A stretch of DNA of 64,000 nucleotides, taken from assembly GCA_964494155.1 (NCBI GenBank), contig CAZBQX010000001.1, positions 43,286 to 107,285 of the forward strand. The letters run 5' to 3'. This stretch comes from an uncultured Syntrophales bacterium. GTDB lineage: Bacteria; Desulfobacterota; Syntrophia; Syntrophales; JAAYKM01. The notes under the pieces were generated by a model. That model had not been told where the DNA came from, did not search any database, and worked only from the letters and a program-made list of their open reading frames with translations. Shown here one piece after another: positions 50,882-62,024 of this stretch (position 1 is the stretch's first letter; each line of letters begins with the position of its first letter). Made by a program: the position numbers and the translations under genes.

Positions 50882-51877
50882 ATGTTCAATAAGCAAATCG
50901 CCCGCCTGGCGGAAAGAATAATCGATGAAGGCTATCTACCCCCATACCAAGAGGCCTGTGCACTCGCCCGCCTTCCGGAAAGGTACACCCTAGATCTTCT
51001 CACATTTGCCCAGAAAATTACCCAAAATTTCAAGGGAAACCGGATCACGCTGTGCGCCATCCTTAACGCTAAGTCGGGATTCTGCACCGAAGACTGCGCC
51101 TTTTGCGCCCAGTCCTCCCATCATCAGACCGGCATTGCCACTTACGATCTGAAAGCGGAAGATTTCATGGTGGCCGATGCGATCGGCCGTCGAAAAGCCG
51201 GTGCAACCCGATTTTCCATGGTGACCAGCGGCTTGTTGCTCACGGAGGAGGAAATTGCCACGGTCTGTCGGTCAGCACAGCGGATCACACATGACACGGA
51301 CATCACCGTCTGCGGATCCCTTGGCACCCTTACGCCGGATCGGGCACGGGCACTTAAGCAAAGCGGCGTGACCGTCTACCACCACAACCTGGAAACGGCC
51401 CGCAGCTTTTTCGATCAGATCTGCACCACCCACGAATACGATGATGATGTGAACACCTTGAAACTCGTGAAAGCAGAGGGTTTTCGGGTCTGCTCCGGCG
51501 GCATTCTGGGCCTCGGCGAATCTTGGGAACAGCGGGTTGAACTGGCATGTACCCTGCGGGACCTCGGCGTAGACGGCATCCCCTTGAACTTCCTGAATCC
51601 CGTAGCCGGTACACGGATGGAAAACCGGCCCCTGATGGCGCCCATGGAGGCCCTGAAGAGTATCGCCCTGTTCAGGTTCATCAATCCGGAGCGGGACATC
51701 TTCATCTGCGGCGGCCGGGAGGTGACCCTGAAAGATTTTCAGTCCTGGATCTTCCTGGCCGGTGCGAACGGCCTCATGGTGGGAAATTATCTGACCACCC
51801 AGGGGCGCAGTGCGGAAATGGACATGGAGATGATCCGGGAACTGGGACTGGTGCCGACCCTGCTCGGGCAGGAATAA
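50882..51877 (+). CDS. bioB: Biotin synthase
   Basis: Radical SAM CTEDCAFC motif, 331 aa. Confidence 0.95.
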   Translation: MFNKQIARLAERIIDEGYLPPYQEACALARLPERYTLDLLTFAQKITQNFKGNRITLCAILNAKSGFCTEDCAFCAQSSHHQTGIATYDLKAEDFMVADAIGRRKAGATRFSMVTSGLLLTEEEIATVCRSAQRITHDTDITVCGSLGTLTPDRARALKQSGVTVYHHNLETARSFFDQICTTHEYDDDVNTLKLVKAEGFRVCSGGILGLGESWEQRVELACTLRDLGVDGIPLNFLNPVAGTRMENRPLMAPMEALKSIALFRFINPERDIFICGGREVTLKDFQSWIFLAGANGLMVGNYLTTQGRSAEMDMEMIRELGLVPTLLGQE

Positions 51878-51887
51878 GAAGGAATGA

Positions 51888-51927
51888 GGCCGGTCCGTCC
51901 GGCAATTCCGGTTTTACGGACCAGGCC
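51888..51927. terminator. Hairpin between convergent bioB and skp-like genes
   Basis: GGCCGGTCCGT ... ACGGACC(A)GGCC, an 11-bp stem with one bulge. The flanking T-tracts are weak. Confidence 0.45.
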
Positions 51928-52046
51928 ACTGAAAACAACACATCAGATGCCGGAATCGGGACGTATTTTGGGTCGTCCCGATTCCGAACATATTCCGAAG
52001 CATGCCGGCGATTGCATTTCCGGGCATTTTTTCGGAGGTCTTTCCA

Positions 52047-52580
52047 TTATTTCTTTTTGCCCTTGTATTTTGCGTCGTATCTCATGATCACTTCCTGGGT
52101 AAGATCGTTTTCGGGCGGAAAGACGATAATGCCGCTTTGTCCCTTGTCGAAGATATAGGTCAAATGTTTTGCCGTCTTCAGATCGTTGCAGATGAGATAC
52201 ACATCTTCCAAAATGCCGTGGGTCAGTTCCCGGTCTCTTTTCCTTACGGCCGCCTCGTTCTCCGCAAGCAGCTTATTGTATTCCTGTACGGCATCCTGAT
52301 AATCTTTCTGCAATTTCGCCAATCCGGCGTCCTTAGCGTTCAATGCTGCTTTCTGACTGATTTGACTCTTTAGCGTCTGAATATTTTTTTCTTTGGCCGC
52401 CATATTTCTGTTCTTGAGTTCCTTGAATGCCGCCAGGTCGTTCATCGACGCAGCTCCGGCAGAAGATTGCTGAATGATCTGATTCACATCCACAAACCCG
52501 ATCCGGGATTCTGCCAGGGCAATGCCGGTGAAGCACAGGCAAACGACACACAGGGTCACCGCTGTATACAATCTGTTCAT
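52047..52580 (-). CDS. Skp/OmpH-family periplasmic chaperone
   Basis: Signal peptide, then a long K/E/Q/A-rich helical region typical of OmpH. RBS GGGAGGTGG. Lies 23 nt after the barrel gene. Confidence 0.7.
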   Translation of the reverse strand: MNRLYTAVTLCVVCLCFTGIALAESRIGFVDVNQIIQQSSAGAASMNDLAAFKELKNRNMAAKEKNIQTLKSQISQKAALNAKDAGLAKLQKDYQDAVQEYNKLLAENEAAVRKRDRELTHGILEDVYLICNDLKTAKHLTYIFDKGQSGIIVFPPENDLTQEVIMRYDAKYKGKKK

Positions 52581-52603
52581 CGTCCCACCTCCCTTGGTAA
52601 ACC

Positions 52604-53686
52604 CTAGAAACGGATCGGTAAGCGGATTTCTACGGTCGTATCCGCCGCATCGTTGGTCAGTCCGATACCGATGGATACGCTGCAGGAAACCCGATCCGTA
52701 ATGGCATAGTTGACACCGAAATTCATTGACGCAACATTGAAATCCGTATCCGCCAGATCATCCCCATTCTGCTCGGTTTTGAAATAATAGCGCTGCTGAT
52801 AGCTGAGACTCGTGGAAAGCTTTTCATTGAGAGCATAGGCCATTCCCAGGCTGACTTCAATACTGTCACCCGGTTTCACATCGCCGTAACCGCTGCCGAC
52901 ATCCCTTTCAAAATTGTAGTAATAGGCCAAGGTCCCGAACAAAACCGCCGGATCGCTCGTCTTGGCCAAGGTCACTCCCGCGGAAAGTCCATAATGGCCG
53001 CTGCCGGTGGGCAATTCTTTCAATCGTGTCCCGCCATCTGCACCCAGATATTCCGTATCCAAATCATAGGGATCCTTGCCCGTTCGCGACTTGCCCTTGA
53101 GATTGATCACCACGTCGGGAATGTTTTCTCTTTCCTGGACCAGATGATAATAAATTCCGGCTTCGATGTCGCCGATATCGCTGTCCCGGACCGTATACTC
53201 GTTTGTTTCGTTGTTGCTTTCGTATGCCTGCCGGTCCCGGCGGAAGAGATAGGGCACCTTCAGTTCGAACTGCAGATTATCCGTTACACCGTAACGGAGG
53301 TTGATGAAGGGCATGATGACGTCTTTTTTGACGTCTTCCGATAAAATCTTCCCCAGTACAATGGCCTGGAGGATTGTAAAACCGTTAATCGCCAAACGCG
53401 CCCTGGAAGTATGGGAATACTGCACGCCGGGTTCGATGATCAACTTCCGCTTTTCAACCAGGACACCGCCTTTTTCCACATCAATCGTCTCCTGCCTGGC
53501 TGTCGGCGTTTTGGCTTTTTCCACGGTTTCCTGCGTTGCCGTCGGCGTTTGGGCTGTTTCGTCCGCTTCCTGCGTTGCCGTAGGTGTTTGGGCTGTTTCA
53601 TCCTCCTCGCCATACGCAACGGTAACCGCCATACACACTACAAGAAATGAAATTGCCAGTTTTCTTCCCAGATTCATGAGCCTCAT
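52604..53686 (-). CDS. Outer-membrane beta-barrel protein, candidate FapF-type amyloid secretion channel
   Basis: Signal peptide, an acidic T/P/Q repeat linker, alternating beta-strand pattern, and a terminal aromatic residue (IRLPIRF). The assignment to FapF rests on position and architecture only. Confidence 0.6.
   Translation of the reverse strand: MRLMNLGRKLAISFLVVCMAVTVAYGEEDETAQTPTATQEADETAQTPTATQETVEKAKTPTARQETIDVEKGGVLVEKRKLIIEPGVQYSHTSRARLAINGFTILQAIVLGKILSEDVKKDVIMPFINLRYGVTDNLQFELKVPYLFRRDRQAYESNNETNEYTVRDSDIGDIEAGIYYHLVQERENIPDVVINLKGKSRTGKDPYDLDTEYLGADGGTRLKELPTGSGHYGLSAGVTLAKTSDPAVLFGTLAYYYNFERDVGSGYGDVKPGDSIEVSLGMAYALNEKLSTSLSYQQRYYFKTEQNGDDLADTDFNVASMNFGVNYAITDRVSCSVSIGIGLTNDAADTTVEIRLPIRF
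53489..53605 (-). repeat. Three tandem 39-bp units encoding a 13-aa repeat (ETAQTPTATQEAD x2 plus a degenerate EKAKTPTARQETI)
   Basis: Units 2 and 3 (53528-53566 and 53567-53605) differ at about 5 of 39 positions. The first unit is more diverged. Confidence 0.8.
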
Positions 53687-53969
53687 TTTCGTTTCCTCCC
53701 TATGTAATTTGTTTGCTGTAAATTACGGCCGCAATCGGCCCCCTTCACACGATCCAAACGCACAGGAAAAACCGCATCAATGAACAAAGAGCATCATCTG
53801 AAAAAAAACGGTCTCTTGAAAAAGAACAATGACTTGTACTTTTTGTACAAAACCCGCTCTTTAAAAAAGAAAAGATCAGACAGTCACCCGTCCATCGTTA
53901 TTTTATGATATATAACTGTAATTACTGTACAATTTGAAACGCCGGACACAGGGCGTCAAAACGCAAGAA

Positions 53970-54000
53970 TGCTTCACCCCTTTTTGAAAAAGGGATGAAG
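53970..54000 (-). terminator. Hairpin terminator/attenuator after the fapE-like gene
   Basis: On the minus strand, GCTTCATCCCTTTTT-C-AAAAAGGGGTGAAGC (one U-G pair) is followed by ATTCTTGCGTTTTG. Confidence 0.6.
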
Positions 54001-54026
54001 CATTTCCCCCTGTTACCGGCTGAGGC

Positions 54027-54545
54027 TCAAAAAGCCGGCGCGAGAGACTTCAGCGTCTCCATCACTGCAGGCGCCTGGGATTCAGCGACATTGTAGACGG
54101 TCAGATTCACAATCAGGCCATTGGTAACAATGTTATTCGACCCGGGGACCTGATTCACTTGAAACACACCTTCTCCTCCGTTGAAACTGCCCAGAACAGC
54201 GGTGGTCTGAAACTGGAGGTTGTCATCGGATGAGCCGTCGCCTGTCGACGTTAATGTAACCTGCCCTGATTGAGTATCTCCATCGAATCCTGCATCATAA
54301 TCGACTTGCGCCCACTTGTTTCCCTGCGTATCCCAGAAGCCCTTGAAGGTAATCGCAAAATAGAAACCCAGGTAGCCTCCCCGCATATCTTCCAACTGCG
54401 ACTCCCCGAGTGCGACAAGCTCCTGATCTTCGAGTCCCGTCCATTGCTCCGATCCATATACCGGTGTGTACAACGCAAAGTAACCGGCGATACACATAAG
54501 GAATACGACAATGGATCGGTTGGTAAACTTTCGACGGTTACACAT
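54027..54545 (-). CDS. Secreted protein with one amyloid-type repeat, FapE-like by position
   Basis: Signal/TM N-terminus. The C-terminal FNGGEGVFQVNQVPGSNNIVTNGLIVNLTV resembles the repeats of the 200-aa protein. AAGGAG RBS. Confidence 0.5.
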   Translation of the reverse strand: MCNRRKFTNRSIVVFLMCIAGYFALYTPVYGSEQWTGLEDQELVALGESQLEDMRGGYLGFYFAITFKGFWDTQGNKWAQVDYDAGFDGDTQSGQVTLTSTGDGSSDDNLQFQTTAVLGSFNGGEGVFQVNQVPGSNNIVTNGLIVNLTVYNVAESQAPAVMETLKSLAPAF

Positions 54546-54556
54546 AGTCGTTCTCC

Positions 54557-55258
54557 TTAATTCTTCATTTCAAAGGGTACGCTCAACATCGGTGCCCCGA
54601 CGTAGAGGTCCCTGATTCGCCATATTTCTTCCTTTGATATACTCAATTGCTTCAGATCTTCATGGGGGCGATTTGCCTGTTGCGGATTCTTTTCCAGCAC
54701 AAGCAGGAGAATGCCGTTCCATCCCTCCGTGAATTCCCTGACCGGCAGGGCGCGTCGGCCGATAATCGGGTCGCTGATATAAACCCGGTCGCCCAATACC
54801 CCCCGCAGCACCACGAAATGTTTGAACCCCTTGATGTCGAGGAGGACAATGGACGGCAGTTGCAGCTTCCTCAAGGTCTCGAAGGGCACCCTGAACCCCT
54901 CGGCCCTGAATTCCCCGGTTCTTTCCGCGTAGAGCTTCAGATCGAGCATGGAGAACCCCTTTTGGGCAATCAACTCCCGGTCGCCATGGTTCAGGATGTC
55001 TGCGATGACATCGGACTCGGAAATATCCCGGGCGTAATAGTACTTCAGAATCGTCGCCAGGGCGGCGGTGCCGCAACTGATATCGAGTTTCTGCCGGACA
55101 ATGCCCGTGTAGCGCATTTCTTTCATGCTCTTGACGGGTTTTTTCAGGATTGTGCCCTGCGTGCCGGTCCGGAATTCAACCATACCCGCAAACGCAAAAC
55201 TCACTCCGAAGAGAAAGCCCATGATTCCGAGAACGATCACTTTTCCGAAAGTCGCCAT
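54557..55258 (-). CDS. C39-family cysteine peptidase domain protein, FapD-like
   Basis: Catalytic Cys context LDISCGTAALATILKYYY and His context KHFVVLRGV, with an N-terminal signal/anchor. ATG at 55258, 5 nt after GGGGAGG. Confidence 0.75.
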   Translation of the reverse strand: MATFGKVIVLGIMGFLFGVSFAFAGMVEFRTGTQGTILKKPVKSMKEMRYTGIVRQKLDISCGTAALATILKYYYARDISESDVIADILNHGDRELIAQKGFSMLDLKLYAERTGEFRAEGFRVPFETLRKLQLPSIVLLDIKGFKHFVVLRGVLGDRVYISDPIIGRRALPVREFTEGWNGILLLVLEKNPQQANRPHEDLKQLSISKEEIWRIRDLYVGAPMLSVPFEMKN

Positions 55259-55261
55259 CGC

Positions 55262-55312
55262 GCCTCCCCTGCAACGGAAAACAGGGGAGGAGGTGTTGCA
55301 CACCTCCTTCCC
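55262..55312 (-). promoter_or_regulatory. Two mutually exclusive hairpins between the fapC-like and fapD-like genes
   Basis: mRNA sense: GGGGA(A)GGAGGTGT-GCA-ACACCTCCTCCCC (13 bp), then TGTTTTCC. Its 3' arm also pairs as CCTCCCCTG-N10-CAGGGGAGG, which buries the fapD-like RBS. Confidence 0.6.
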
Positions 55313-55350
55313 CTAAATTTTAAATTGAACAAATGTACTCTTAACGCTCA

Positions 55351-56520
55351 CTACTCGCCCGGAGTCGGCGTCACCTCGCCACCGTTCGCGGTCGGCACAT
55401 AGCAGGCGGCAAAGGCATTGGCCTGCATGTTGTTGTTGCCGGCAGCCACGTTGATGCCGAAGTTGCCCGTCATGTTGTTCAGGCTGTCCGCGGAAATCGT
55501 CGCGGTATTCGTACTCCATTTGTACACCGTGGTGACAACTGGAGCCGTCCCCGAAACCGTGCCGCTCAGAACCGCATCAGGCAGAAGCGTCTCAAAGGCA
55601 ATGCCGCCGACGCCGGTCTTCCACGGATTGTCAACCGCACCCTGGATATCAGAATCCATGTCAAGGTGACCGGTCGATGTTCCATTCGGATGTGGTAAAC
55701 CTCCTGACCAAGTATCCAGGTAGAAGTTGTCCGCCTGGTAACTCGTGACAGGGGTGTTCGGGAAGTCAACCGTACCGCTGAATGTCAGACTCACCGGGGC
55801 TTGCTCCACGACTTCTTTCACCGTCGGCGCATTGCAGGTCATGTTGTCCATGGACTTCTGCTGCACGTAGGCTACGGCCATCCCGACTCTCGCCGGCGCC
55901 GTGGCGATGGCGGTGAGATTGGTCTGGGCGTTGTTGTTGCCGGCAACCACATTCAGCCCGACATTACCCGTGGAGTTGTTCAGCACGCCATCCGCGATCG
56001 TCGCATTGTTGGCTGCTCCGTCATTCTTCGTCATGTTGAGCATGGCCTTCTGGACACTGAAAATCTGTGCCCGGGTCAGGGACATGTCCGCTTCACCGGC
56101 AGCATACGAGGCGACATTGCTCTGGGTGTTGCTGTTTCCGGCAGCCACGTTCAGGCCCAAATTGCCCGAAAAGTTCTTCAGCGAGTCTCCCGCAATGGTC
56201 GCATTGTTGTCGGATTCGTAGTTGAAGGTAAAGTTCTTCTCGGGGAACTGGTCATTCTTGGCTACTGCTTCGACCAGACCGCCGACGGTCATGTAATCAC
56301 CCTGCTCTTCAATATCGATATCCACTGTCACACTGTAGAGTTCGAGGGCCAGGTTGGCATAGGCCATGAACTGAAGCGTGGCGTCTGCATTCAGACTTAA
56401 CTGGATATCCTTGTTGATATCTCCGCAACAGCCCCCATTATTATTATCAATTGCTGCAACCGAAACGGGAACCAACATGAGCATTAAAGCTGCACATACG
56501 ACCCATAATTTTCGACTCAT
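55351..56520 (-). CDS. Secreted three-repeat protein, FapC-like major amyloid subunit candidate
   Basis: Signal peptide plus three 36-aa repeats: NNATIAGDSLKNFSGNLGLNVAAGNSNTQSNVASYA, NNATIADGVLNNSTGNVGLNVVAGNNNAQTNLTAIA and NTATISADSLNNMTGNFGINVAAGNNNMQANAFAAC. AAGGAGG RBS. Confidence 0.75.
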   Translation of the reverse strand: MSRKLWVVCAALMLMLVPVSVAAIDNNNGGCCGDINKDIQLSLNADATLQFMAYANLALELYSVTVDIDIEEQGDYMTVGGLVEAVAKNDQFPEKNFTFNYESDNNATIAGDSLKNFSGNLGLNVAAGNSNTQSNVASYAAGEADMSLTRAQIFSVQKAMLNMTKNDGAANNATIADGVLNNSTGNVGLNVVAGNNNAQTNLTAIATAPARVGMAVAYVQQKSMDNMTCNAPTVKEVVEQAPVSLTFSGTVDFPNTPVTSYQADNFYLDTWSGGLPHPNGTSTGHLDMDSDIQGAVDNPWKTGVGGIAFETLLPDAVLSGTVSGTAPVVTTVYKWSTNTATISADSLNNMTGNFGINVAAGNNNMQANAFAACYVPTANGGEVTPTPGE

Positions 56521-56541
56521 AATCCTGTACCTCCTTCTTTT

Positions 56542-57144
56542 TCATTGCATGTTCACGTTAATTACCAGGTTGTTTGAAACAGCGTTGGCCACCCCCGCCG
56601 ACTGGTTCACCTGGACGATGCCCTTACTGTTTTCGAAGGCGTGTTCACCAATGATGTCGCTTCGGATACTGTTACCGTTTTCTCCATTGAATTCCTGTGA
56701 TGCAGAACCGACCACCTGTTGCAGAACGGTGGTATCGAGCGGAACGTTCACGCCGTATCCGATCCGGACCAGATTGGCCTCCGCCGATCCGGAACCGGCG
56801 GCTTGATTGATGGACACGATCCCCACAGAAGATTGAAAAGCGTAATCCCCGATTAAATCCATCGCTTCACCGGATATACAAATCCCGGGTTGAGTAAACT
56901 GATCAATCACCCCCGACTGCAGCGTATTGCCGACGCCGATAAGATGCAAATTCGCCTGGGCATGGTTGTCGCCGGCCGCCATGTTGATTCCGATCAACCC
57001 CTGGAAATCGGAGACGGCATTATTTTCAATCACCGCCTGGTTAGCAAAGGTTTCCAACCCGCTGCCATTGGCCACGTTGCAGAATATCAATCCCATCGCC
57101 AGGAATAAAAAGGATTGCCGCTTTACCGTGGGCCCCCAAGTCAT
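56542..57144 (-). CDS. Secreted three-repeat protein, FapB-like nucleator candidate
   Basis: Signal peptide plus three repeats: FQGLIGINMAAGDNHAQANLHLIG, FQSSVGIVSINQAAGSGSAEANLVRIG and FENSKGIVQVNQSAGVANAVSNNLVIN. Strong GGAAGGAGGGGAGG RBS. Confidence 0.65.
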   Translation of the reverse strand: MTWGPTVKRQSFLFLAMGLIFCNVANGSGLETFANQAVIENNAVSDFQGLIGINMAAGDNHAQANLHLIGVGNTLQSGVIDQFTQPGICISGEAMDLIGDYAFQSSVGIVSINQAAGSGSAEANLVRIGYGVNVPLDTTVLQQVVGSASQEFNGENGNSIRSDIIGEHAFENSKGIVQVNQSAGVANAVSNNLVINVNMQ

Positions 57145-57182
57145 CTATCCTCCCCTCCTTCCTTATTGGATTTGACTTTAAT

Positions 57183-57542
57183 CTATCTGTAGCCAACCAC
57201 CGTTAGTGTTGAATATGATTGATTATTTAAATTTGCCGGACTCATCGGGGGCTCTGCCGTTCTATTCGGCTCATCCCACAAAATGATACGGTTTTCTCCC
57301 TCAGGCGCGTTTGTGGGTATTAGAGCAACCCCGTTGGTATACCCTCCCCTCACGTCATCGAGTTGTTTTGCGCCAAGCCCTTCGAGGCAGAGAATCGGGA
57401 AATCGGGTATACCTTCTTGCAGACTATACCCCGGAGAGGATGAATTACTCTGTACTGCCCAATCCTCTGCCTGAAGTCCGGGAACGCGGATGACGGCAAT
57501 CAAAACCAGAAGAAAGATGAGAATAGAGAATTGTTTTTTCAT
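57183..57542 (-). CDS. Small secreted protein, FapA-like by position
   Basis: Signal peptide MKKQFSILIFLLVLIAVIRVPGLQA. The tracked ORF starts at 57575, but that extension contains the sigma-54 promoter-like element. Confidence 0.45.
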   Translation of the reverse strand: MKKQFSILIFLLVLIAVIRVPGLQAEDWAVQSNSSSPGYSLQEGIPDFPILCLEGLGAKQLDDVRGGYTNGVALIPTNAPEGENRIILWDEPNRTAEPPMSPANLNNQSYSTLTVVGYR

Positions 57543-57553
57543 GCCCTCATTTG

Positions 57554-57569
57554 AGCAAAGGCCGTACCA
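57554..57569 (-). promoter_or_regulatory. Sigma-54 type -24/-12 promoter candidate
   Basis: The minus strand reads TGGTACGGCCTTTGCT against the consensus TGGCACG-N4-TTGCW. GG and GC are correctly spaced. It is adjacent to a sigma-54 activator gene. Confidence 0.55.
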
Positions 57570-57615
57570 TTTCATATCTATATGTTATTATTAATATTAT
57601 AATGAACTAAAGGCC

Positions 57616-57671
57616 GGATGTGTCCGCGTTGGTTTACAGTTTTCGTAAAGGGATGGTCCGTTTGGTTTACA
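57616..57671. promoter_or_regulatory. Imperfect direct repeat pair, candidate enhancer (UAS) for the adjacent activator
   Basis: GGATGTGTCCGCGTTGGTTTACA (57616-57638) and GGATGGTCCGTTTGGTTTACA (57651-57671). The identical 10-mer TTGGTTTACA recurs 33 bp apart, about 60-115 bp upstream of the -24 element. Confidence 0.45.
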
Positions 57672-57828
57672 CTGGGAAAATGGCGGAAATAAGGAAGAAA
57701 AAAACCGGAATGCCGTCTTCGCTGTTGCTAACGCTGCGCAGAAAGTCCTTTTGTCATCCCGAAAAGAATGTCAACTCAGAAGCGCATTAAAAAATGAGAA
57801 AAATGCTGCCGTAGCCGCTAACTGCCTT

Positions 57829-59301
57829 TTAGAGATGATACCTTTTCTTTAATTTGTGCATCGTCGTTCGGCTGATATGGAGCTCACGGGCGGCACGGGA
57901 AAGATTTCCCCCGCAAGCATTGAGCACCTCCAGAAGTTTTTTTCTTTCAAAACTGGACCGGATATCCTCCAATGATGAAGGCTCAGCGTTTTCCAAACGG
58001 GGTAGGTGCGCCAAGTCCAGATCAACGGCGGTGATTTCCTCACCCTCCGATACGACGATGCCCTTTCTGATTTTGTTGATCAATTCTCGCACGTTACCCG
58101 GCCAATCATAGTGATTGATGGCCTCCAGGGCATCCTTGGATAATCTTTTTTGCGGGGAGTTTTGGTCCTCACGGCAGAATTTCCCCAGAAAATATTTGGC
58201 CAAAATGACCTTGTCCGGTCCTCTGTCTCGCAATGGCGTCAAACGAATGGGGAAAACACTGAGGCGGTAATAAAGATCATCCCGGAATTTACCTTCATGG
58301 ACGGCCTTTTCGAGATTGCTGTTCGTTGCGGCAATGATGCGGGCGTCGACTTTTCTCGGTTTCAGGCAACCGATGCGTTCGATGATCTTATCTTCCAGAA
58401 AACGCAGCAGCTTTGCCTGAAGCGACCAGGGCATTTCTCCGATTTCATCGAGAAACAGCGTTCCGCCCTCGGCCAGTTCGAATTTCCCTTTCCGAGCCTG
58501 ATACGCGCCGGTGAAAGCACCTCTTTCATGACCGAAAAGTTCCGCTTCCAGGAGTGCTTCCGGGATGGCCGCGCAATTGATGATATACAGCGGATGGTTT
58601 GCTCTCGGGCTCCGCTCATGGATCGCCCTGGCGGCAAGCTCTTTTCCCGTGCCGCTTTCCCCGAGCAGCAGGACGGGGATTTCCGTCGGAGCGACCTTTC
58701 TGATCAGGGAAAACAAAACCAGCATCTGTCGGCACGTTCCGACATATTCTTCGATGATTTCGCCATCGTTATGTTTCAAAATTTCGCGGTCAATCAGATT
58801 CAGCAGGTGCAAATGAACGTCGCCGTTCAAACCTGCAAGGTGGCGGGTCAACCTCTGGAAAAAGGTTTTTCTCGTGTGGGCGGCAAGATAATCATCCGAA
58901 AATTTAAGACTGAGATGGCAGAATATACATTCTTCAATTCCATCCGGTATGGAGCGACCACAATACGGACAGACATCCCACCTGACATTTCCCGCACTGT
59001 TGCGGATGAAAGACCACAGGCGATTCATGGTCTCTTCATCGTCGTAGTAAAAACCCAGATGAGATCTGTTGTTTTCCTTGCAGATGACCCACGCAGGCAA
59101 ATCCAGATCATGCCGGCCACCGATCAGCAAACGAAGCCGCGTCTGATCATCAACGCCGTCGGTTTTTCCTTCGACCAGGGCGCCTCCCAAACTGATATTG
59201 GTAATGGTGACGGGACATGGCCTTTCTTCTCCCGACGTGATGCCTGAAGTGACGATTTCACCGCTGATTGATCGGTTGATTCTAAAATCTATTCTTGGCA
59301 T
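57829..59301 (-). CDS. Sigma-54-dependent transcriptional activator with N-terminal PilZ domain
   Basis: PilZ motifs RIDFR (RxxxR) and NISLGG (D/NxSxxG). Cys4 ribbon CPYCG...CIFCH. AAA+ Walker A GESGTGKE, GAFTGA and Walker B FLDEIGE. Fis-type HTH at the C-terminus. ATG at 59301 after GGGGGGAG. Confidence 0.85.
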   Translation of the reverse strand: MPRIDFRINRSISGEIVTSGITSGEERPCPVTITNISLGGALVEGKTDGVDDQTRLRLLIGGRHDLDLPAWVICKENNRSHLGFYYDDEETMNRLWSFIRNSAGNVRWDVCPYCGRSIPDGIEECIFCHLSLKFSDDYLAAHTRKTFFQRLTRHLAGLNGDVHLHLLNLIDREILKHNDGEIIEEYVGTCRQMLVLFSLIRKVAPTEIPVLLLGESGTGKELAARAIHERSPRANHPLYIINCAAIPEALLEAELFGHERGAFTGAYQARKGKFELAEGGTLFLDEIGEMPWSLQAKLLRFLEDKIIERIGCLKPRKVDARIIAATNSNLEKAVHEGKFRDDLYYRLSVFPIRLTPLRDRGPDKVILAKYFLGKFCREDQNSPQKRLSKDALEAINHYDWPGNVRELINKIRKGIVVSEGEEITAVDLDLAHLPRLENAEPSSLEDIRSSFERKKLLEVLNACGGNLSRAARELHISRTTMHKLKKRYHL

Positions 59302-59871
59302 AAGCTCCCCCCTTATTGCTTTCATGTGTCATTCTGAAAGAGCAACGATTATTTGACACCCCCCCGAAAAGCATCTCAAGCCTTGATATCGGTTTAAAAA
59401 ATCCCCCTCACCAACCTTACTGCTAAGAAAGTAAATGTAAATAATGAATGATTAAGCCCAAAAAAACGACCATCAGGGATGTTCAATCTTCCCTGATTCT
59501 TCGAAAATCCGTTTATGGTTGTTTTTTGATGAACTGGGTTGCCGAAAACTGCCGTCAGACGTCTTGCTTTAGAAAAGGATACAACAGCAACATAAACCTG
59601 TGCGTGTTAGTGTACCAATATTGTTTTATTTACGAGAAAGCAATACGTAATTATTTGTTACTTTATCTCAGGTTAAAACTGTTATTATGATACGGCAAAC
59701 AAAATCTTTTCCTTTATCCGACGTTTACCGGACGTTTTTCAGAGACACCGTGCAGCAAGGTATTGCATCTCTCCCCAGCGATATGATCCGGCAGACGTGT
59801 TTCTCCTCGTGATTTATATCAAAATCCAGTATGCTGCGGTGAAACAATAGAAAGGACAGAGTTGTAAACAT

Positions 59872-60240
59872 ATGCGCTATCCCTTTTTCATCATACTCCA
59901 TGCTGAACCGACCGCGGCAGCGACCAACGGTTGGGGTCTCGACGGAGCCAATGTAAACGTCTGGGTGATGGAATCCAACATTGAAGCCGCTGTCGCGGCT
60001 GCGAAATCGCACATCCTGGGTTACGCCTGGATTCCCGGGGATGTGCGCTACGCCGGCGAAGTGACGGGAGAATTAATCAAAGCCGTGGATGATGTTGAGA
60101 CGGGCAATTACGAAGAGGCGCTGCAAAGCGGTATTGCTGCGGCTTTTTATGGATGGACGAAAGAAAACAGATCTCCCGAATTTTTTGAATATCGTTCCCT
60201 GGACCCGTACCCGAAAGCAGTAAATCATCTTTTTCACTAA
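59872..60240 (+). CDS. Hypothetical protein
   Basis: 122-aa ORF with balanced composition, lying 14 nt upstream of the next gene. No family recognised. Confidence 0.55.
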   Translation: MRYPFFIILHAEPTAAATNGWGLDGANVNVWVMESNIEAAVAAAKSHILGYAWIPGDVRYAGEVTGELIKAVDDVETGNYEEALQSGIAAAFYGWTKENRSPEFFEYRSLDPYPKAVNHLFH

Positions 60241-60254
60241 AAGAGGTTAAATAA

Positions 60255-62024
60255 ATGGACATTTACGGATCTTTCAAATTTCTGAAGCGAAAAATTGTTA
60301 TTCGTTTACGGGACAGAGTGTGCAGCACACCGGAGGAACTCTTGTCGAGCGATCTCTTCTTCGAAGTCATGACCCGTTTCATCAATGACCTCAAGCGCCG
60401 CGAAGCCCCCCTGCTTCATATTTTCAACAAGCCTGTCGGAGAAATTGATGAAGGGGATGTCAAGCAACTCATCGAGGCTTTTCATATTTTGAGCAAAATG
60501 AAAGCCGACGCAGTACCGAAACTCATGGCCGACGGAACACGTTTCGTCCGGGATCCCTCTTTGCTGAACATGTTTGTGGAGCGTCTGTACAACTTCTGGC
60601 GTGATTTTGATCGTTTTATTATATGCGATTCGACGGGGGACCGTCTGGATCAGCGCCCATACCGTACCTTCAATGCAACAATCGAATCCCTCATGCACCT
60701 GGTCCGCCAGGTCTATCGGGAGATTCAGGAGAATATCACCGGGAACCACCCCAGCGTTTACCGCCAGATCCGGGCCGGCGCCGAAGTTGCTGTCATCGCG
60801 TTGCCCAAAGATCTGGCCTTGCCCATTGGAAGTTATCGTAAACTGATGGACGTTCCGGTAATTCGTCAAATTCTTCTTTATCCGCCCCTGCTGCTCAACC
60901 CACCGATGAACAAAAGGACCGGGAAATTCGAGCGTATCAACCAGAATCCACTCAACCTGATTGAAGTCGATCCTGATGAGTGGCTGTGTTATCCCGCGCG
61001 GATCGGTTCCCTCCTGATCCTGATCTATGTCCATGAAAAATTTTATGAACTGGGTTTTTCTCTTTGCAACCTCTTCGAACTGGCGGACGATGAAAGTCTG
61101 AACAAACCCGCCGACGCTGTTTATCTGTTCGGCGCCCCCGGATCGGAACTAGATGTTCTGGCACCAATGCCGACAGTATTCTATGATGACGAAGCCGTCG
61201 GCATGATCATCGCCGCCTGCCCAAATGACGATCAGTACGGATACTTCGGGTATCTGAAAAAGATGGCGCTGACCCTGCATAATGTAAAAGTCATGAAACA
61301 GGGGAAGATGCCCTTCCATGGTGCCCTGGTCAGAATTGTCTTAAAAGGAGATCAGGCTCTGACCCTTCTCATAATCGGCGATACGGGGGCAGGCAAATCG
61401 GAAACCCTCGAAGCATTCCGGATCATCGGTGAAAACCAAATCGAAGATATAACCATCATCGCCGACGACATGGGCTCTCTGGAAATCTCTTCGGAAGGCC
61501 GGATCATCGGATACGGAACCGAAATCGGCGCTTTTGTGCGCCTGGATGATCTGCAGCCTGGTTACGCGTTCGGACAGCTCGACCGGGCAATCATTATGAA
61601 TCCAAATCAGGTCAATGCCCGGGTGGTTTTACCGGTGACAACCTATGAAAACGTCGTCAGGGGCATCCCGGTGGATATGGTGCTTTACGCCAATAACTAT
61701 GAAGAAATCGATGAGGACCATCCCATTATCGAGCCCCTACCCTCGGCGGAAACGGCCCTGCGTGTTTTTCGTGAAGGGACCGCCATGAGCAAGGGAACAA
61801 CCACCGCAACCGGTTTGGTGCATACCTATTTTGTGAATGTATTTGGGGCGGTTCAGTATAAGGCCCTGCACGATGAAATCGCTAACAGGTTTTTCCATGC
61901 TTTCTTCGCAGAAAAAATATTCGTAGGTCAGCTCCGAACGAAGCTGGGTATCGCCGGGTGTGAAAGAAAAGCGCCCGAAGAGGCCGCACAGGCTTTGTTG
62001 CAGATGATCAGCCCGGGCAAGTGA
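60255..62024 (+). CDS. Uncharacterised protein with HPr-kinase/PEPCK-like P-loop domain
   Basis: FHGALVRIVLKGDQALTLLIIGDTGAGKSETLEAF matches the HprK pattern HG-LV...G-G-LI-G-SG-GKSE-ALEL. The roughly 340-aa N-terminal region is unrecognised. AAGAGG RBS. Confidence 0.7.
   Translation: MDIYGSFKFLKRKIVIRLRDRVCSTPEELLSSDLFFEVMTRFINDLKRREAPLLHIFNKPVGEIDEGDVKQLIEAFHILSKMKADAVPKLMADGTRFVRDPSLLNMFVERLYNFWRDFDRFIICDSTGDRLDQRPYRTFNATIESLMHLVRQVYREIQENITGNHPSVYRQIRAGAEVAVIALPKDLALPIGSYRKLMDVPVIRQILLYPPLLLNPPMNKRTGKFERINQNPLNLIEVDPDEWLCYPARIGSLLILIYVHEKFYELGFSLCNLFELADDESLNKPADAVYLFGAPGSELDVLAPMPTVFYDDEAVGMIIAACPNDDQYGYFGYLKKMALTLHNVKVMKQGKMPFHGALVRIVLKGDQALTLLIIGDTGAGKSETLEAFRIIGENQIEDITIIADDMGSLEISSEGRIIGYGTEIGAFVRLDDLQPGYAFGQLDRAIIMNPNQVNARVVLPVTTYENVVRGIPVDMVLYANNYEEIDEDHPIIEPLPSAETALRVFREGTAMSKGTTTATGLVHTYFVNVFGAVQYKALHDEIANRFFHAFFAEKIFVGQLRTKLGIAGCERKAPEEAAQALLQMISPGK

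What the first reader, a model, noticed from the sequence alone, without database searches (positions are those of the whole stretch)
52047..57575. Fap-type functional-amyloid secretion locus with fapABCDEF gene order
Six co-oriented minus-strand genes match the Pseudomonas fapABCDEF operon in order, approximate size and content:
- a small secreted protein (119-130 aa);
- a 200-aa secreted protein with 3 repeats;
- a 389-aa secreted protein with 3 N/Q/G/A-rich repeats separated by linkers;
- a C39 cysteine-peptidase domain protein with its Cys and His motifs intact;
- a 172-aa secreted protein carrying one repeat;
- after a gap, an outer-membrane barrel with a flexible repeat linker, followed by a Skp chaperone.

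From memory, the repeat core GN(L/V/F)G(L/I)NV(A/V)AGN(S/N)N.Q(S/T/A)N is very close to the FapC repeat core (GNxGxNxAAGxxNQQxN). The host genome is clearly not a pseudomonad: its housekeeping synteny is delta-proteobacterial in type. The accessory parts also differ, because Skp is appended and there is no obvious coiled-coil on the barrel. Genes of this kind would normally be annotated as hypothetical.
Basis: partly seen in the sequence, partly recalled or inferred. Interest (0 to 1): 0.85.

Follow-up and report, generated by a model that had tools for sequence, protein, structure and literature searches.

The report
Fap amyloid-fibre export operon, Syntrophales
This is a real but divergent copy of the known Fap "functional amyloid" fibre-secretion operon, in an uncultured anaerobic Syntrophales bacterium; it is ordinary as a kind, but it shows unusually clearly the probable cutting site of the system's protease.

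Summary
In detail: seven co-oriented minus-strand genes at 52047-57575. Five are homologues of Pseudomonas Fap proteins:
- FapB: NCBIfam E=1e-24.
- FapC: NCBIfam E=1e-36; E=2e-15 to the cryo-EM FapC.
- FapD: NCBIfam E=2e-53, with the C39 Gln/Cys/His/Asp residues intact.
- FapE: found only by iterated and transitive profile searches.
- FapF: E=3e-40 to PDB 5O67; the AF2 model matches it at TM 0.84.

The first gene is FapA by position only; it shows no homology to Pseudomonas FapA. The seventh gene is Skp.

The host is a Syntrophales MAG. A 2013 survey reported a Fap system in Desulfohalobium, whose FapF is 51% identical to this one. A 2025 survey reported Fap operons in Desulfobacterota and Nitrospirota. 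I therefore rate this a new member of a known kind, not a discovery.

Variant features:
- FapF lacks the coiled coil.
- Skp is appended.
- A conserved sigma-54 promoter lies beside an adjacent PilZ-type activator.
- FapE and the first-gene protein both carry a canonical double-glycine leader (L-12, L-7, M/V-4, G-2, G-1).

This leader is conserved across the FapE family; Pseudomonas has RGR in place of RGG. Its -1 residue co-varies with a residue next to the FapD catalytic Cys. That points to FapE as the unresolved FapD substrate, cut at G57|Y58. This is an inference and has not been tested.

The parts
57829..59325 (-). Sigma-54 enhancer-binding activator: PilZ-like N-terminus, zinc ribbon, AAA+ domain and Fis-type HTH. 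Probable regulator of the operon.
   Evidence: Pfam Sigma54_activat 3e-69, HTH_8 2.5e-9, PilZ 0.004 and Zn ribbon 0.005. The L004 orthologue hits PilZ at 1.5e-6, above the Pfam cut-off. A sigma-54 activator lies next to the Fap genes in most related loci.
57631..57671 (-). Two direct repeats of TGTAAACC (57671-57664 and 57638-57631), candidate activator binding sites upstream of the promoter.
   Evidence: Both are invariant across window, L001 and L004, while the surrounding sequence diverges. Function is inferred.
57554..57569 (-). Sigma-54 type -24/-12 promoter element TGGTACGGCCTTTGCT.
   Evidence: It is the only match in the 64-kb window with at most one mismatch. Equivalent elements sit 27-31 nt upstream of the first-gene ATG in L001, L004, L011, L012/13 and L014/16, with similar elements visible in L017 and L061.
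57183..57542 (-). Gene in the FapA position. It encodes a 119-aa secreted protein with a double-glycine-type leader (LGAKQLDDVRGG|Y) and an IILWDE motif. It is not homologous to Pseudomonas FapA.
   Evidence: ORF; homologue alignment. The family is present in Group-1 loci. jackhmmer gives no link to Pseudomonas FapA in either direction, and hhalign gives probability 0.4%. There are no NCBIfam, Pfam or PDB hits.
56542..57144 (-). fapB-like gene: 200-aa secreted protein with three imperfect repeats (minor subunit or nucleator).
   Evidence: NCBIfam FapB 1.1e-24 over profile positions 7-189 of 190. Repeats shown. The L001 orthologue carries a precomputed Pfam PF27129 FapBC hit.
55351..56520 (-). 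fapC-like gene: 389-aa secreted protein with three imperfect repeats (about aa 105-141, 171-207 and 338-374) and a long IR2-IR3 linker. Predicted major fibre subunit.
   Evidence: NCBIfam FapC 1.4e-36. PDB FapC fibril chains 9nqd and 9u4u at 1.6e-15. The repeats are conserved in 10 orthologues, including Aeromonas FapC.
54557..55258 (-). fapD-like gene: periplasmic C39 cysteine peptidase. In the numbering of the 248-aa ORF the key residues are Gln71, Cys77, His162 and Asp178.
   Evidence: NCBIfam FapD 2.4e-53 and Pfam Peptidase_C39 4.4e-21. The best PDB hit is the double-glycine protease LahT, 6mpz, at 3e-10. Residues and the signal peptide are shown.
54027..54545 (-). fapE-like gene, 172 aa: signal peptide, a 26-residue propeptide ending in a canonical double-glycine leader (LGESQLEDMRGG|Y, G56-G57), a beta-meander, and one Fap-type repeat.
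   Evidence: The profile search finds a protein that is bona fide FapE. Eight of 80 relatives hit only the NCBIfam FapE model. jackhmmer links it reciprocally to Aeromonas and Pseudomonas FapE.
53968..54004 (-). Terminator-like hairpin with a 17-bp stem and a T-rich tail, directly after fapE.
   Evidence: Found; conserved in L001 and L004. Its role as an attenuator or terminator is inferred.
53687..53780 (-). Strongly conserved untranslated leader upstream of fapF, with a 7-bp stem (GTAATTT-N9-AAATTAC) next to the ribosome-binding site.
   Evidence: Nearly invariant across window, L001 and L004. No Rfam match. Function unknown.
52604..53686 (-). fapF-like gene: 360-aa outer-membrane beta-barrel transporter with a disordered T/Q/E-rich tandem-repeat linker and no coiled coil.
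   Evidence: NCBIfam FapF 3.5e-59 over profile positions 77-420 of 420. PDB 5o67 at 2.8e-40. AF2 pLDDT 77.6. Foldseek versus 5o67_B gives E=2e-24, TM 0.84 and rmsd 2.7 A. Linker repeat.
52047..52580 (-). skp/ompH gene: 177-aa periplasmic holdase chaperone, 23 nt downstream of fapF.
   Evidence: Pfam OmpH 1.1e-20. It holds the same position after fapF in L001, L004, L005, a Nitrospirota locus (L006) and another deltaproteobacterial MAG (L007).

Best explanation
This is a divergent Fap (functional amyloid of Pseudomonas type) fibre-biogenesis operon in an uncultured Syntrophales bacterium. I lay out the proposed mechanism step by step and mark which steps are shown and which are inferred.

1. 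Transcription (inferred from conserved sequence). The adjacent PilZ/zinc-ribbon sigma-54 activator drives transcription from a conserved -24/-12 promoter directly upstream of the first gene. A c-di-GMP input through the PilZ domain is speculation.

2. Export to the periplasm (shown by sequence). All seven products carry Sec signal peptides.

3. Fibre subunits (homology shown; amyloid formation inferred). FapC is the major subunit and FapB the minor subunit or nucleator. Each has three N/Q/G/A-rich imperfect repeats homologous to those that form the three stacked Greek-key cross-beta layers of Pseudomonas FapC. They would cross the outer membrane unfolded and polymerise outside the cell.

4. 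Outer-membrane passage (homology and predicted fold shown). FapF provides the FapF-type barrel.

5. Proteolytic step (inferred). FapD, a periplasmic C39 peptidase with an intact Gln/Cys/His/Asp set, removes a double-glycine leader from FapE, cutting between G57 and Y58. It may also bind or cut the leader-bearing product of the first gene. This would license secretion and anchoring of the fibre.

6. Chaperoning (inferred). FapF has no coiled coil and there is no FapA homologue. The co-transcribed Skp probably supplies periplasmic holdase activity for the subunits or for the barrel.
For: Direct profile and structure matches:
- NCBIfam gives FapB 1.1e-24, FapC 1.4e-36, FapD 2.4e-53 and FapF 3.5e-59. 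Fap models are the best or only hits.
- Against solved structures, FapF matches 5o67 at 2.8e-40 and FapC matches the fibril chains 9nqd/9u4u at 1.6e-15, aligned over repeats 1 and 2.
- The AF2 barrel model has the FapF crystal structures as its top 18 PDB matches (E=2e-24, TM 0.84).

FapE membership:
- The profile of the 172-aa family found 130 representative proteins. One of them (P0254, at E=1.4e-4) scores 8.6e-31 on NCBIfam FapE.
- Eight of 80 relatives hit FapE and no other family.
- jackhmmer links it to Aeromonas FapE at 2.4e-24 and reciprocally to Pseudomonas FapE at 4e-50 and 1.7e-25.

Synteny:
- The gene order A-position, B, C, D, E, F is conserved in Syntrophales, Nitrospirota and Geothermobacter, as is the A-position, B, C, D, E block in Thermodesulfobacteria.
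- The L001 orthologues carry precomputed Pfam FapBC hits.

Leader and cleavage hypothesis:
- FapE has L46(-12), L51(-7), M54(-4), G56 and G57. This fits the published ComA/LahT recognition pattern: Leu-12, Glu-8/Leu-7 and a hydrophobic residue at -4 before GG (PMC6363468).
- In 108 family representatives, -12 is L/V/I/M in 105, -7 is L/M in 107, -8 is E in 69, and -1 is G in 75 and R/K in 27.
- AF2 places a short helix at residues 48-54, which are positions -10 to -4.
- FapD's best PDB relative is the double-glycine protease LahT.
- A basic residue at FapE -1 goes with Ala at FapD Cys+2 in 13 of 13 cases, spread over three FapD clades. Ala occurs in only 3 of 37 cases where -1 is Gly.
- In Pseudomonas, FapD activity is required for secretion, and the first ~70 residues of FapE are missing from MS data (PMC5557850).

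Regulation:
- The sigma-54 promoter is conserved across lineages.
Against: - Every NCBIfam score is below the curated equivalog cut-off: FapB 87 bits against a cut-off of 190, FapC 127 against 195, FapD 181 against 330, and FapF 201 against 700. The accepted Aeromonas fapBCDEF operon also fails all of these cut-offs.
- FapE is not hit directly by the NCBIfam FapE model. A single profile-profile comparison with Aeromonas FapE was weak (probability 5.5%). jackhmmer can drift through the repeat shared with FapB and FapC.
- There is no FapA homologue, and FapF lacks the coiled coil that is reported to regulate secretion in Pseudomonas (PMC5557850).
- No structure prediction of FapB or FapC was possible, so the stacked-layer fold rests on homology only.
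- Amyloid properties, cleavage by FapD, the role of Skp and c-di-GMP control are all untested.
- The covariation rests on only three independent clades.
- In 25% of the family the -1 residue is Arg or Lys. Known C39 double-glycine proteases are not known to accept these residues.
- A terminator-like hairpin separates fapE from fapF-skp.
Confidence: 0.85

Rival explanations
1. It is a non-amyloid surface-fibre (pilus-like) system of the wider FapD/FapF-related group, such as the Acinetobacter Fil pilus or the single-repeat small-subunit systems of Variovorax and Polaromonas. It would be a relative of Fap rather than a Fap amyloid system.
For: - NCBIfam FilB (1.1e-30) and FilC (4e-18) also hit the peptidase and the barrel.
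- A large related set of loci has only a small one-repeat subunit plus FapD, a FapE-like protein, FapF and a sigma-54 activator.
- All Fap scores are below the equivalog cut-offs.
Against: - The Fap models score far better than the Fil models (FapD 181 versus FilB 107 bits; FapF 201 versus FilC 66 bits).
- The locus has both three-repeat proteins, in B-C order, that define Fap. They match FapB and FapC specifically, and they match the solved FapC fibril.
Confidence: 0.07
2. The barrel and Skp form a separate unit, for example a COG4313/MetA-type channel for hydrophobic compounds with a general chaperone. They would lie next to a B-C-D-E cluster without working with it.
For: - Pfam's best hit for the barrel is Phenol_MetA_deg (3.8e-8).
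- The COG4313 channel 4rl8 is the next structural match after FapF.
- A 340-nt gap with a strong hairpin separates fapE from the barrel gene.
- Published surveys report fapF separated from the main operon in several genera (PMC3792158).
Against: - The sequence match to FapF (2.8e-40) and the structural match (E=2e-24 versus 2.5e-13 for 4rl8) are much stronger.
- The barrel gene stays next to the Fap genes in Syntrophales, Nitrospirota, Thermodesulfobacteria, Geothermobacter, Aeromonas and Pseudomonas.
Confidence: 0.05
3. It is a system for processing and releasing small double-glycine-leader peptides or proteins (signalling or bacteriocin-like). The first-gene product and the 172-aa protein would be the real cargo, and the repeat proteins would be unrelated adhesins.
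For: - Two proteins carry canonical double-glycine leaders next to a C39 peptidase.
- The peptidase's nearest solved relative is a bacteriocin-type leader protease.
Against: - The peptidase is stand-alone with a Sec signal and is not fused to an ABC exporter.
- No ABC transporter or immunity gene is present in the locus.
- The leader-bearing 172-aa protein belongs to the FapE family, which is fibre-associated in Pseudomonas (PMC5557850).
Confidence: 0.03

Closest known systems
Pseudomonas fapABCDEF functional-amyloid operon (P. sp. UK4, P. aeruginosa PAO1)
   Same: - The gene order B-C-D-E-F is the same.
- FapB and FapC each have three imperfect repeats with the GNxGxNxAAGxxNxQxN core.
- FapD is a periplasmic C39 peptidase.
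- FapE has an N-terminal ELxxLRGx motif and a C-terminal repeat.
- FapF is a FapF-type barrel (TM 0.84 to 5o67).

   Different: - Sequence identities are low; the barrel is 28% identical.
- All NCBIfam scores are below the equivalog cut-offs.
- The first gene is unrelated to FapA.
- FapF lacks the N-terminal coiled coil (360 aa versus 422-433 aa).
- Skp is appended.
- FapE is shorter (172 versus ~250 aa) and has RGG where Pseudomonas has RGR.
- A sigma-54 promoter with a PilZ-type activator lies upstream. The gene upstream of the Pseudomonas loci sampled here is different; I took it to be FecR-like from its sequence alone and did not test this.
Fap system of Desulfohalobium retbaense (Dueholm et al. 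2013, PMC3792158) and the Desulfobacterota/Nitrospirota Fap operons of the 2025 GTDB screen (PMC12822426)
   Same: - It falls in the same clade of short FapF proteins. The D. retbaense protein P0051 is 51% identical over 85% of the barrel.
- It shares the anaerobic, formerly deltaproteobacterial, background.
   Different: - The 2013 paper lists Desulfohalobium among the genera whose operon departs from fapABCDEF. Here all genes are contiguous and Skp is added.
- In the papers I read I did not find the leader motif, the missing coiled coil, Skp or the sigma-54 control described for this clade.
Aeromonas fapBCDEF (read here from A. caviae, L084)
   Same: - B-C-D-E-F order without FapA.
- A sigma-54 activator lies nearby.
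- It is also below the NCBIfam cut-offs.
   Different: - The Aeromonas FapF keeps the long N-terminal region (416 aa, aligned from profile position 18).
- Its FapE has RGR.
- Its activator has a VpsR domain rather than a PilZ N-terminus.
Double-glycine leader peptides and C39 protease domains of PCAT/AMS exporters (ComA, LahT; PMC6363468)
   Same: - The protease fold and catalytic residues are shared.
- The leader has hydrophobic residues at -12, -7 and -4 and Gly-Gly at -2/-1.
- A two-turn helix is predicted over positions -10 to -4.
   Different: - Here the protease is a free periplasmic protein.
- The substrate first crosses the inner membrane by Sec, so the leader follows a signal peptide.
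- There is no ABC transporter.
Acinetobacter Fil pilus (NCBIfam FilB/FilC)
   Same: It pairs a stand-alone C39 peptidase with a FapF-related barrel (A. baumannii hits).
   Different: Similarity is much weaker (27% identity for the barrel). There are no three-repeat FapB/FapC proteins.

Membership tests
Fap functional-amyloid system | A major subunit (FapC) with three imperfect N/Q/G/A-rich repeats separated by linkers | tested here: met
   NCBIfam FapC 1.4e-36. PDB FapC fibril 1.6e-15. Three repeats at about aa 105-141, 171-207 and 338-374, conserved in 10 orthologues.
Fap functional-amyloid system | A minor subunit (FapB) with three repeats, encoded directly upstream of FapC | tested here: met
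   NCBIfam FapB 1.1e-24 over nearly the whole profile. Position and repeats.
Fap functional-amyloid system | FapD: a Sec-exported, stand-alone C39 cysteine peptidase with the catalytic Cys and His | tested here: met
   NCBIfam FapD 2.4e-53 and Pfam C39 4.4e-21. Gln71, Cys77, His162, Asp178 and a signal peptide are present.
Fap functional-amyloid system | FapE encoded between FapD and FapF | tested here: met
   There is no direct NCBIfam hit. The family profile reaches a protein that scores 8.6e-31 on the FapE model. Eight of 80 relatives hit FapE only. jackhmmer links it reciprocally to Aeromonas and Pseudomonas FapE. The N-terminal motif and the C-terminal repeat are shared.
Fap functional-amyloid system | FapF: an outer-membrane barrel of the FapF fold (12 strands in the crystal structure) | tested here: met
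   PDB 5o67 at 2.8e-40. AF2 model with the barrel at pLDDT mostly above 85. Foldseek E=2e-24, TM 0.84. The plug helix is only weakly predicted (H63-71, low pLDDT).
Fap functional-amyloid system | An N-terminal periplasmic coiled coil on FapF (Pseudomonas type) | tested here: not met
   The NCBIfam alignment starts at profile position 77 of 420. Residues 25-74 of the model are disordered, apart from one weakly predicted short helix (H63-71), and there is no long helix. The Pseudomonas FapF proteins fetched here carry the heptad-like segment. This feature belongs to the Pseudomonas branch. The short form is shared by the whole Group-1 clade.
Fap functional-amyloid system | The FapA chaperone | tested here: not met
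   jackhmmer finds no link in either direction, and hhalign gives probability 0.4%. The literature says fapA is often absent (6 of 16 genera, PMC3792158), so it does not define the family.
Fap functional-amyloid system | Score above the NCBIfam equivalog cut-offs | tested here: not met
   All five scores are below the cut-offs. The published Aeromonas system also fails them, so the cut-offs delimit close, Pseudomonas-like orthologues and not the whole family.
Fap functional-amyloid system | Fibres with amyloid properties (cross-beta, ThT/Congo red binding, SDS-resistant, formic-acid-soluble) | not testable with these tools
   This needs expression and biochemistry.
Double-glycine leader / C39 processing | A leader with hydrophobic residues at -12, -7 and -4 and Gly-Gly (or Gly-Ala/Ser) at -2/-1 | tested here: met
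   FapE has L46, L51, M54, G56 and G57. The first-gene protein has L, L, V, G, G. Family statistics. Consensus taken from PMC6363468.
Double-glycine leader / C39 processing | Peptidase fused to an ABC exporter, with the substrate lacking a Sec signal | tested here: not met
   The peptidase is stand-alone with a signal peptide. The substrates carry Sec signals. There is no ABC transporter in the locus.
Double-glycine leader / C39 processing | Actual cleavage after the second glycine | not testable with these tools
   Indirect support only: covariation of the FapE -1 residue with FapD Cys+2.
Acinetobacter Fil pilus | FilB and FilC orthologues reaching the family score | tested here: not met
   FilB scores 107 bits against a cut-off of 475. 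FilC scores 66 bits against a cut-off of 630. Both are weaker than the Fap hits.

The most novel reading that the evidence does not exclude
The N-terminal propeptide of FapE is a genuine double-glycine leader, and it is the long-unidentified target of FapD. In this reading, cleavage after R-G-G (RGR in Pseudomonas) is the licensing step for secretion across the whole FapD/FapE/FapF superfamily. That superfamily would include a large, undescribed group of single-repeat small-subunit systems in Betaproteobacteria.

In the Syntrophales, Nitrospirota and Thermodesulfobacteria clade, the machinery would also work without the FapF coiled coil and without FapA. Their place would be taken by a leader-bearing small protein, possibly a pseudo-substrate of FapD. 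In some lineages a dedicated Skp is added.
Probability: 0.4. Interest if true: 0.6.

Novelty: new member of a known kind. Interest (0 to 1): 0.38.

Why it matters
As a Fap operon it adds little. The family, its spread beyond Pseudomonas and its presence in Desulfobacterota and Nitrospirota are already published. Its value is comparative, in three ways.

- **FapD substrate.** This divergent clade shows a textbook double-glycine leader in FapE, which is blurred in Pseudomonas (RGR). The target and cleavage site of FapD have been described as unclear since 2017, and this makes the question directly testable with one peptide-cleavage assay.
- **Dispensable parts.** The clade shows that the FapF coiled coil and FapA are not universal parts of the machine.
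- **Biology and regulation.** Fap fibres in syntrophic anaerobes from digesters could matter for granule and aggregate formation. Sigma-54 activators with PilZ or VpsR domains recur next to Fap loci, which suggests a regulatory theme worth testing.

Tried and rejected
- **Direct family scans.** NCBIfam and Pfam scans of the first-gene protein and the 172-aa protein gave nothing useful: only a weak FapB hit (0.0045) for the latter.
- **First-gene protein against PDB.** A profile search found only noise, with E of 0.87 or worse.
- **First-gene protein against Pseudomonas FapA.** I fetched 62 FapA sequences from metagenome loci. jackhmmer in both directions and hhalign showed no relationship, so I rejected the idea that this protein is a FapA orthologue.
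- **The 130-aa reading of the first gene.** I rejected it in favour of 119 aa, because its first 11 codons are the conserved promoter.
- **Second sigma-54 promoter.** I looked for one in the 340-nt gap before fapF and saw no convincing match.
- **Rfam.** A scan of 51000-60500 found nothing.
- **FapC structure prediction.** The second job went to FapE instead.
- **Fold search of the FapE model.** The afdb50 library was not available.
- **Plasmid-collection hits.** They gave DNA but almost no annotation.
- **Single-template hhalign.** FapE against Aeromonas FapE was weak (probability 5.5%). Membership rests on the other lines of evidence.
- **Literature.** I found no paper that links FapE to a canonical double-glycine leader. 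The library is incomplete, so this is not proof of absence.

Full report
**Observation**

The region 52047-57575 holds seven co-oriented minus-strand ORFs of 130, 200, 389, 248, 172, 360 and 177 aa. Gaps between them are 11-47 nt, except for 340 nt before the 360-aa gene. All seven begin with signal-peptide-like N-termini.

The 200-aa protein has three looser repeats. The 360-aa protein has a 13-aa tandem repeat linker, seen as a 39-nt period in 2.8 copies at 53490-53599. The description is accurate.

**Identity of the genes**

NCBIfam models give:
- FapB 1.1e-24 for the 200-aa protein.
- FapC 1.4e-36 for the 389-aa protein.
- FapD 2.4e-53 for the 248-aa protein, which also hits Pfam Peptidase_C39 at 4.4e-21.
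- FapF 3.5e-59 for the 360-aa protein.

The 177-aa protein is OmpH/Skp (1.1e-20).

All Fap scores lie below NCBI's equivalog cut-offs. However, the Aeromonas caviae fapBCDEF operon also fails every cut-off, and Aeromonas is one of the genera with a published Fap system (PMC3792158). The cut-offs therefore delimit Pseudomonas-like orthologues, not the family as a whole.

Against solved structures:
- The barrel matches Pseudomonas FapF (5o67) at 2.8e-40 over residues 80-360.
- The 389-aa protein matches the cryo-EM FapC fibril chains 9nqd and 9u4u at 1.6e-15 across repeats 1 and 2.
- The peptidase's nearest solved relative is the double-glycine protease LahT (6mpz, 3e-10), with the Gln, Cys, His and Asp positions aligned.

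An AF2 model of the barrel has pLDDT 77.6, mostly above 85 in the barrel. FapF crystal structures are its 18 best PDB matches (E=2e-24, TM 0.84, rmsd 2.7 A). The COG4313 channel 4rl8 comes next at 2.5e-13.

Residues 25-74 of the barrel protein are predicted disordered, and the NCBIfam alignment starts at profile position 77 of 420.

**The 172-aa protein is a FapE**

It has no direct FapE hit. A profile of its 11 close homologues was searched against 1.84 billion representative proteins and found 130 relatives. One of them, P0254, scores 8.6e-31 on NCBIfam FapE over the whole model. Eight of 80 relatives hit FapE and no other family.

Iterated searches over the ORFs of fetched loci link it to Aeromonas FapE (2.4e-24). 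They link it reciprocally to Pseudomonas FapE (4e-50 and 1.7e-25). A single-template profile comparison was weak, and drift through the shared repeat is possible. Against drift, the position between fapD and fapF, the N-terminal motif and the C-terminal repeat all agree.

**The first gene is not fapA**

I fetched Pseudomonas-type operons from metagenomes and collected 62 FapA sequences. Neither jackhmmer in either direction nor hhalign (probability 0.4%) relates them to the first-gene family.

That family has its own pattern: a signal peptide, an LxxELxxIRG(G/Q/R/K) motif, and an invariant IILWDE-like block. It occurs at the head of the operon in Syntrophales, Nitrospirota, Thermodesulfobacteria and Geothermobacter.

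**Host and relatives**

A GTDB species representative labelled as an uncultured Syntrophales bacterium carries the same fapF-skp-bioB stretch at 92-96% nucleotide identity. A 92-kb metagenome contig (L001) is syntenic over the whole locus and its flanks.

I call the loci with the full arrangement 'Group 1'. They have the A-position gene, B, C, D, E and F, a short FapF of about 320-340 aa, and an adjacent sigma-54 activator. They occur in Syntrophales, Nitrospirota, Thermodesulfobacterium, Thermodesulfatator, Thermosulfurimonas, other Thermodesulfobacteriota and Geothermobacter. Skp follows fapF only in the Syntrophales loci, one Nitrospirota locus and one other deltaproteobacterial MAG.

The Desulfohalobium retbaense protein, from the one deltaproteobacterial Fap system reported in 2013, is 51% identical to this FapF (PMC3792158). 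A 2025 review reports 1602 Fap clusters in GTDB v226, with Desulfobacterota, Nitrospirota and Bacillota among the phyla (PMC12822426). The kind of system and its presence in this phylum are therefore already known.

**Regulation**

The only match in the window to TGGCAC-N5-TTGCW with at most one mismatch lies at 57569-57554. It falls inside the first 11 codons of the 130-aa ORF. Equivalent -24/-12 elements sit 27-31 nt upstream of the first-gene ATG in L001, L004, L011, L012/13 and L014/16, and similar elements are visible in L017 and L061. The true start is therefore the second ATG (57542, 119 aa), where four of the seven database homologues also start. The mRNA would be nearly leaderless.

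Two invariant TGTAAACC repeats lie about 60-100 nt further upstream.

The adjacent gene (57829-59325) encodes a sigma-54 activator. Its N-terminus resembles PilZ: weakly here (0.004), but above the Pfam cut-off in the L004 orthologue (1.5e-6). In Aeromonas and Variovorax the neighbouring activators carry a VpsR domain instead. Control by c-di-GMP is a plausible inference only.

A 17-bp hairpin with a T-rich tail follows fapE. It is conserved, as is a 95-nt leader before fapF that has no Rfam match.

**The protease and its probable substrate**

After its predicted signal-peptidase site (VYG|S), FapE has a 26-residue segment ending LGESQLEDMRGG|Y. Counting back from G57, this gives L at -12, Q at -8, L at -7, M at -4 and G-G at -2/-1. 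The first-gene protein has LGAKQLDDVRGG|Y.

The published recognition pattern for double-glycine proteases is Leu-12, Glu-8/Leu-7 and a hydrophobic residue at -4. These residues are held as a two-turn helix in a groove of the C39 domain (PMC6363468). The AF2 model of FapE (pLDDT 74) puts a helix at residues 48-54, which are positions -10 to -4.

In an alignment of 80 family representatives, R55 and G56 are invariant. In 108 motif-anchored representatives:
- Position -12 is L/V/I/M in 105.
- Position -7 is L/M in 107.
- Position -8 is E in 69.
- Position -4 is L/M/I/V in 92.
- Position -1 is G in 75 and R/K in 27.
- Position +1 is Y/F in 86.

The anchoring step used some of these positions, so those counts are somewhat circular.

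Pseudomonas and Aeromonas FapE carry the same motif with Arg at -1 (NDAELAQLRGRF). This may be why Rouse et al. saw no canonical C39 site, although they did find the first ~70 residues of FapE missing and FapD activity essential (PMC5557850).

Of the 144 FapD genes I found, 117 have a leader-bearing gene directly downstream.

The FapE -1 residue co-varies with FapD:
- When -1 is R/K, the residue two after the catalytic Cys is Ala in 13 of 13 cases. These fall in three separate FapD clades: Pseudomonas with Aeromonas; L006/L007/L061; and L059.
- When -1 is Gly, that residue is Ala in only 3 of 37 cases and is otherwise Ser or Thr.
- Cys-4 is Thr in 12 of 13 R/K cases, against Tyr, Leu or Phe otherwise.

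With only three independent clades this is suggestive, not proof.

The -1 residue of the first-gene protein varies (G, R, K, M) among close relatives whose FapD is unchanged. That protein may bind FapD without being cut.

**Mechanism proposed**

1. Sigma-54-dependent transcription of the A-position-to-E unit.
2. Sec export of all products.
3. Removal of the FapE leader by FapD at G57|Y58.
4. Passage of unfolded FapB, FapC and FapE through FapF.
5. Extracellular stacking of the three repeats per subunit into Greek-key cross-beta layers, as in Pseudomonas FapC (PMC12392863).
6. Skp acting as periplasmic holdase in place of FapA and the coiled coil.

Homology of the parts and the barrel fold are shown. 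Everything else is inferred.

**Verdict**

This is a new, divergent member of a known and already widely surveyed family. Its main value is the clean double-glycine leader in FapE, which makes the open question of FapD's substrate directly testable.

Noticed in passing
Loci L021-L083 (e.g. L028 7159-7539, L046 7786-8193, L077 12350-12760): A large related group occurs in Variovorax, Polaromonas, Thiobacillus, Luteibacter, Undibacterium and others. It has no three-repeat FapB/FapC. Instead it has a small (85-158 aa) secreted protein with an LxxxRGG leader and a single C-terminal Fap-like repeat (...SGLPVVIQNSGANVLIQNAVILNLQMN). This is followed by FapD, a leader-bearing FapE-like protein, a long FapF (430-520 aa) and a sigma-54 activator. 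I did not find it described in the papers I read.
   Followed up: partly
FapD alignment from loci L001-L166; window FapD residues 73 and 79: The FapE -1 residue co-varies with FapD. Where -1 is R/K, FapD has Ala at Cys+2 in 13 of 13 cases (three FapD clades), against 3 of 37 where -1 is Gly. It has Thr at Cys-4 in 12 of 13 cases.
   Followed up: partly
window 57554-57569 and 57542: The -12 element of the sigma-54 promoter ends only about 13 nt before the start codon of the first gene. The transcript would be nearly leaderless. The same short spacing is seen in Thermodesulfatator and Thermosulfurimonas loci.
   Followed up: partly
window 53687-53780 (minus strand): About 95 nt upstream of fapF are almost invariant between loci that are otherwise 75-89% identical. 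The stretch includes a 7-bp stem (GTAATTT-N9-AAATTAC) beside the ribosome-binding site. There is no Rfam match. It may be a translational control element.
   Followed up: partly
window 55351-56520, FapC residues ~255-330 (IR2-IR3 linker): The linker is not free-varying. A block SYQADNFY.DTW...HP...GH.D.D...QGA..NP...VGG.AF is conserved in Syntrophales, Nitrospirota, Thermosulfurimonas and Geothermobacter FapC, but is absent from Thermodesulfobacterium and Aeromonas. It is rich in His and Asp and might bind metal or form a displayed module.
   Followed up: no
window 57829-59325; L084 1694-2995; L027 11074-12501: Sigma-54 activators sit next to Fap-type loci in many lineages but have different sensor domains. 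Group-1 loci have PilZ plus a zinc ribbon. Aeromonas and Variovorax have a VpsR domain. Both domain types are linked to c-di-GMP signalling in other systems.
   Followed up: partly
window 53455-53470 (FapF residues ~70-76, ...VEKGG|VL...): A Gly-Gly lies at the junction between the disordered linker and the barrel. G74 is at least 90% conserved among 20 FapF relatives. Rouse et al. speculated that FapD might also cut FapF at such a junction. The upstream residues do not fit the leader pattern.
   Followed up: no
window 55288-55308: A 9-bp GC-rich hairpin (AGGAGGTGT-GCA-ACACCTCCT) lies between fapC and fapD and overlaps the GTG start of the long FapD ORF. It might lower fapD-fapE expression relative to fapC.
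   Followed up: no
L061 9569-10990; proteins P0054 and P0061: The Geothermobacter FapF relatives (about 430-470 aa) carry thrombospondin type-3 repeats (Pfam PF02412) in the N-terminal region, in place of a coiled coil or a T/Q-rich linker.
   Followed up: no
window 59872-62024 (plus strand): Two conserved genes lie upstream of the activator: one of 122 aa, and one of 589 aa with a GDTGAGKSE P-loop. They are syntenic in L001 and have no Pfam hit on record there.
   Followed up: no
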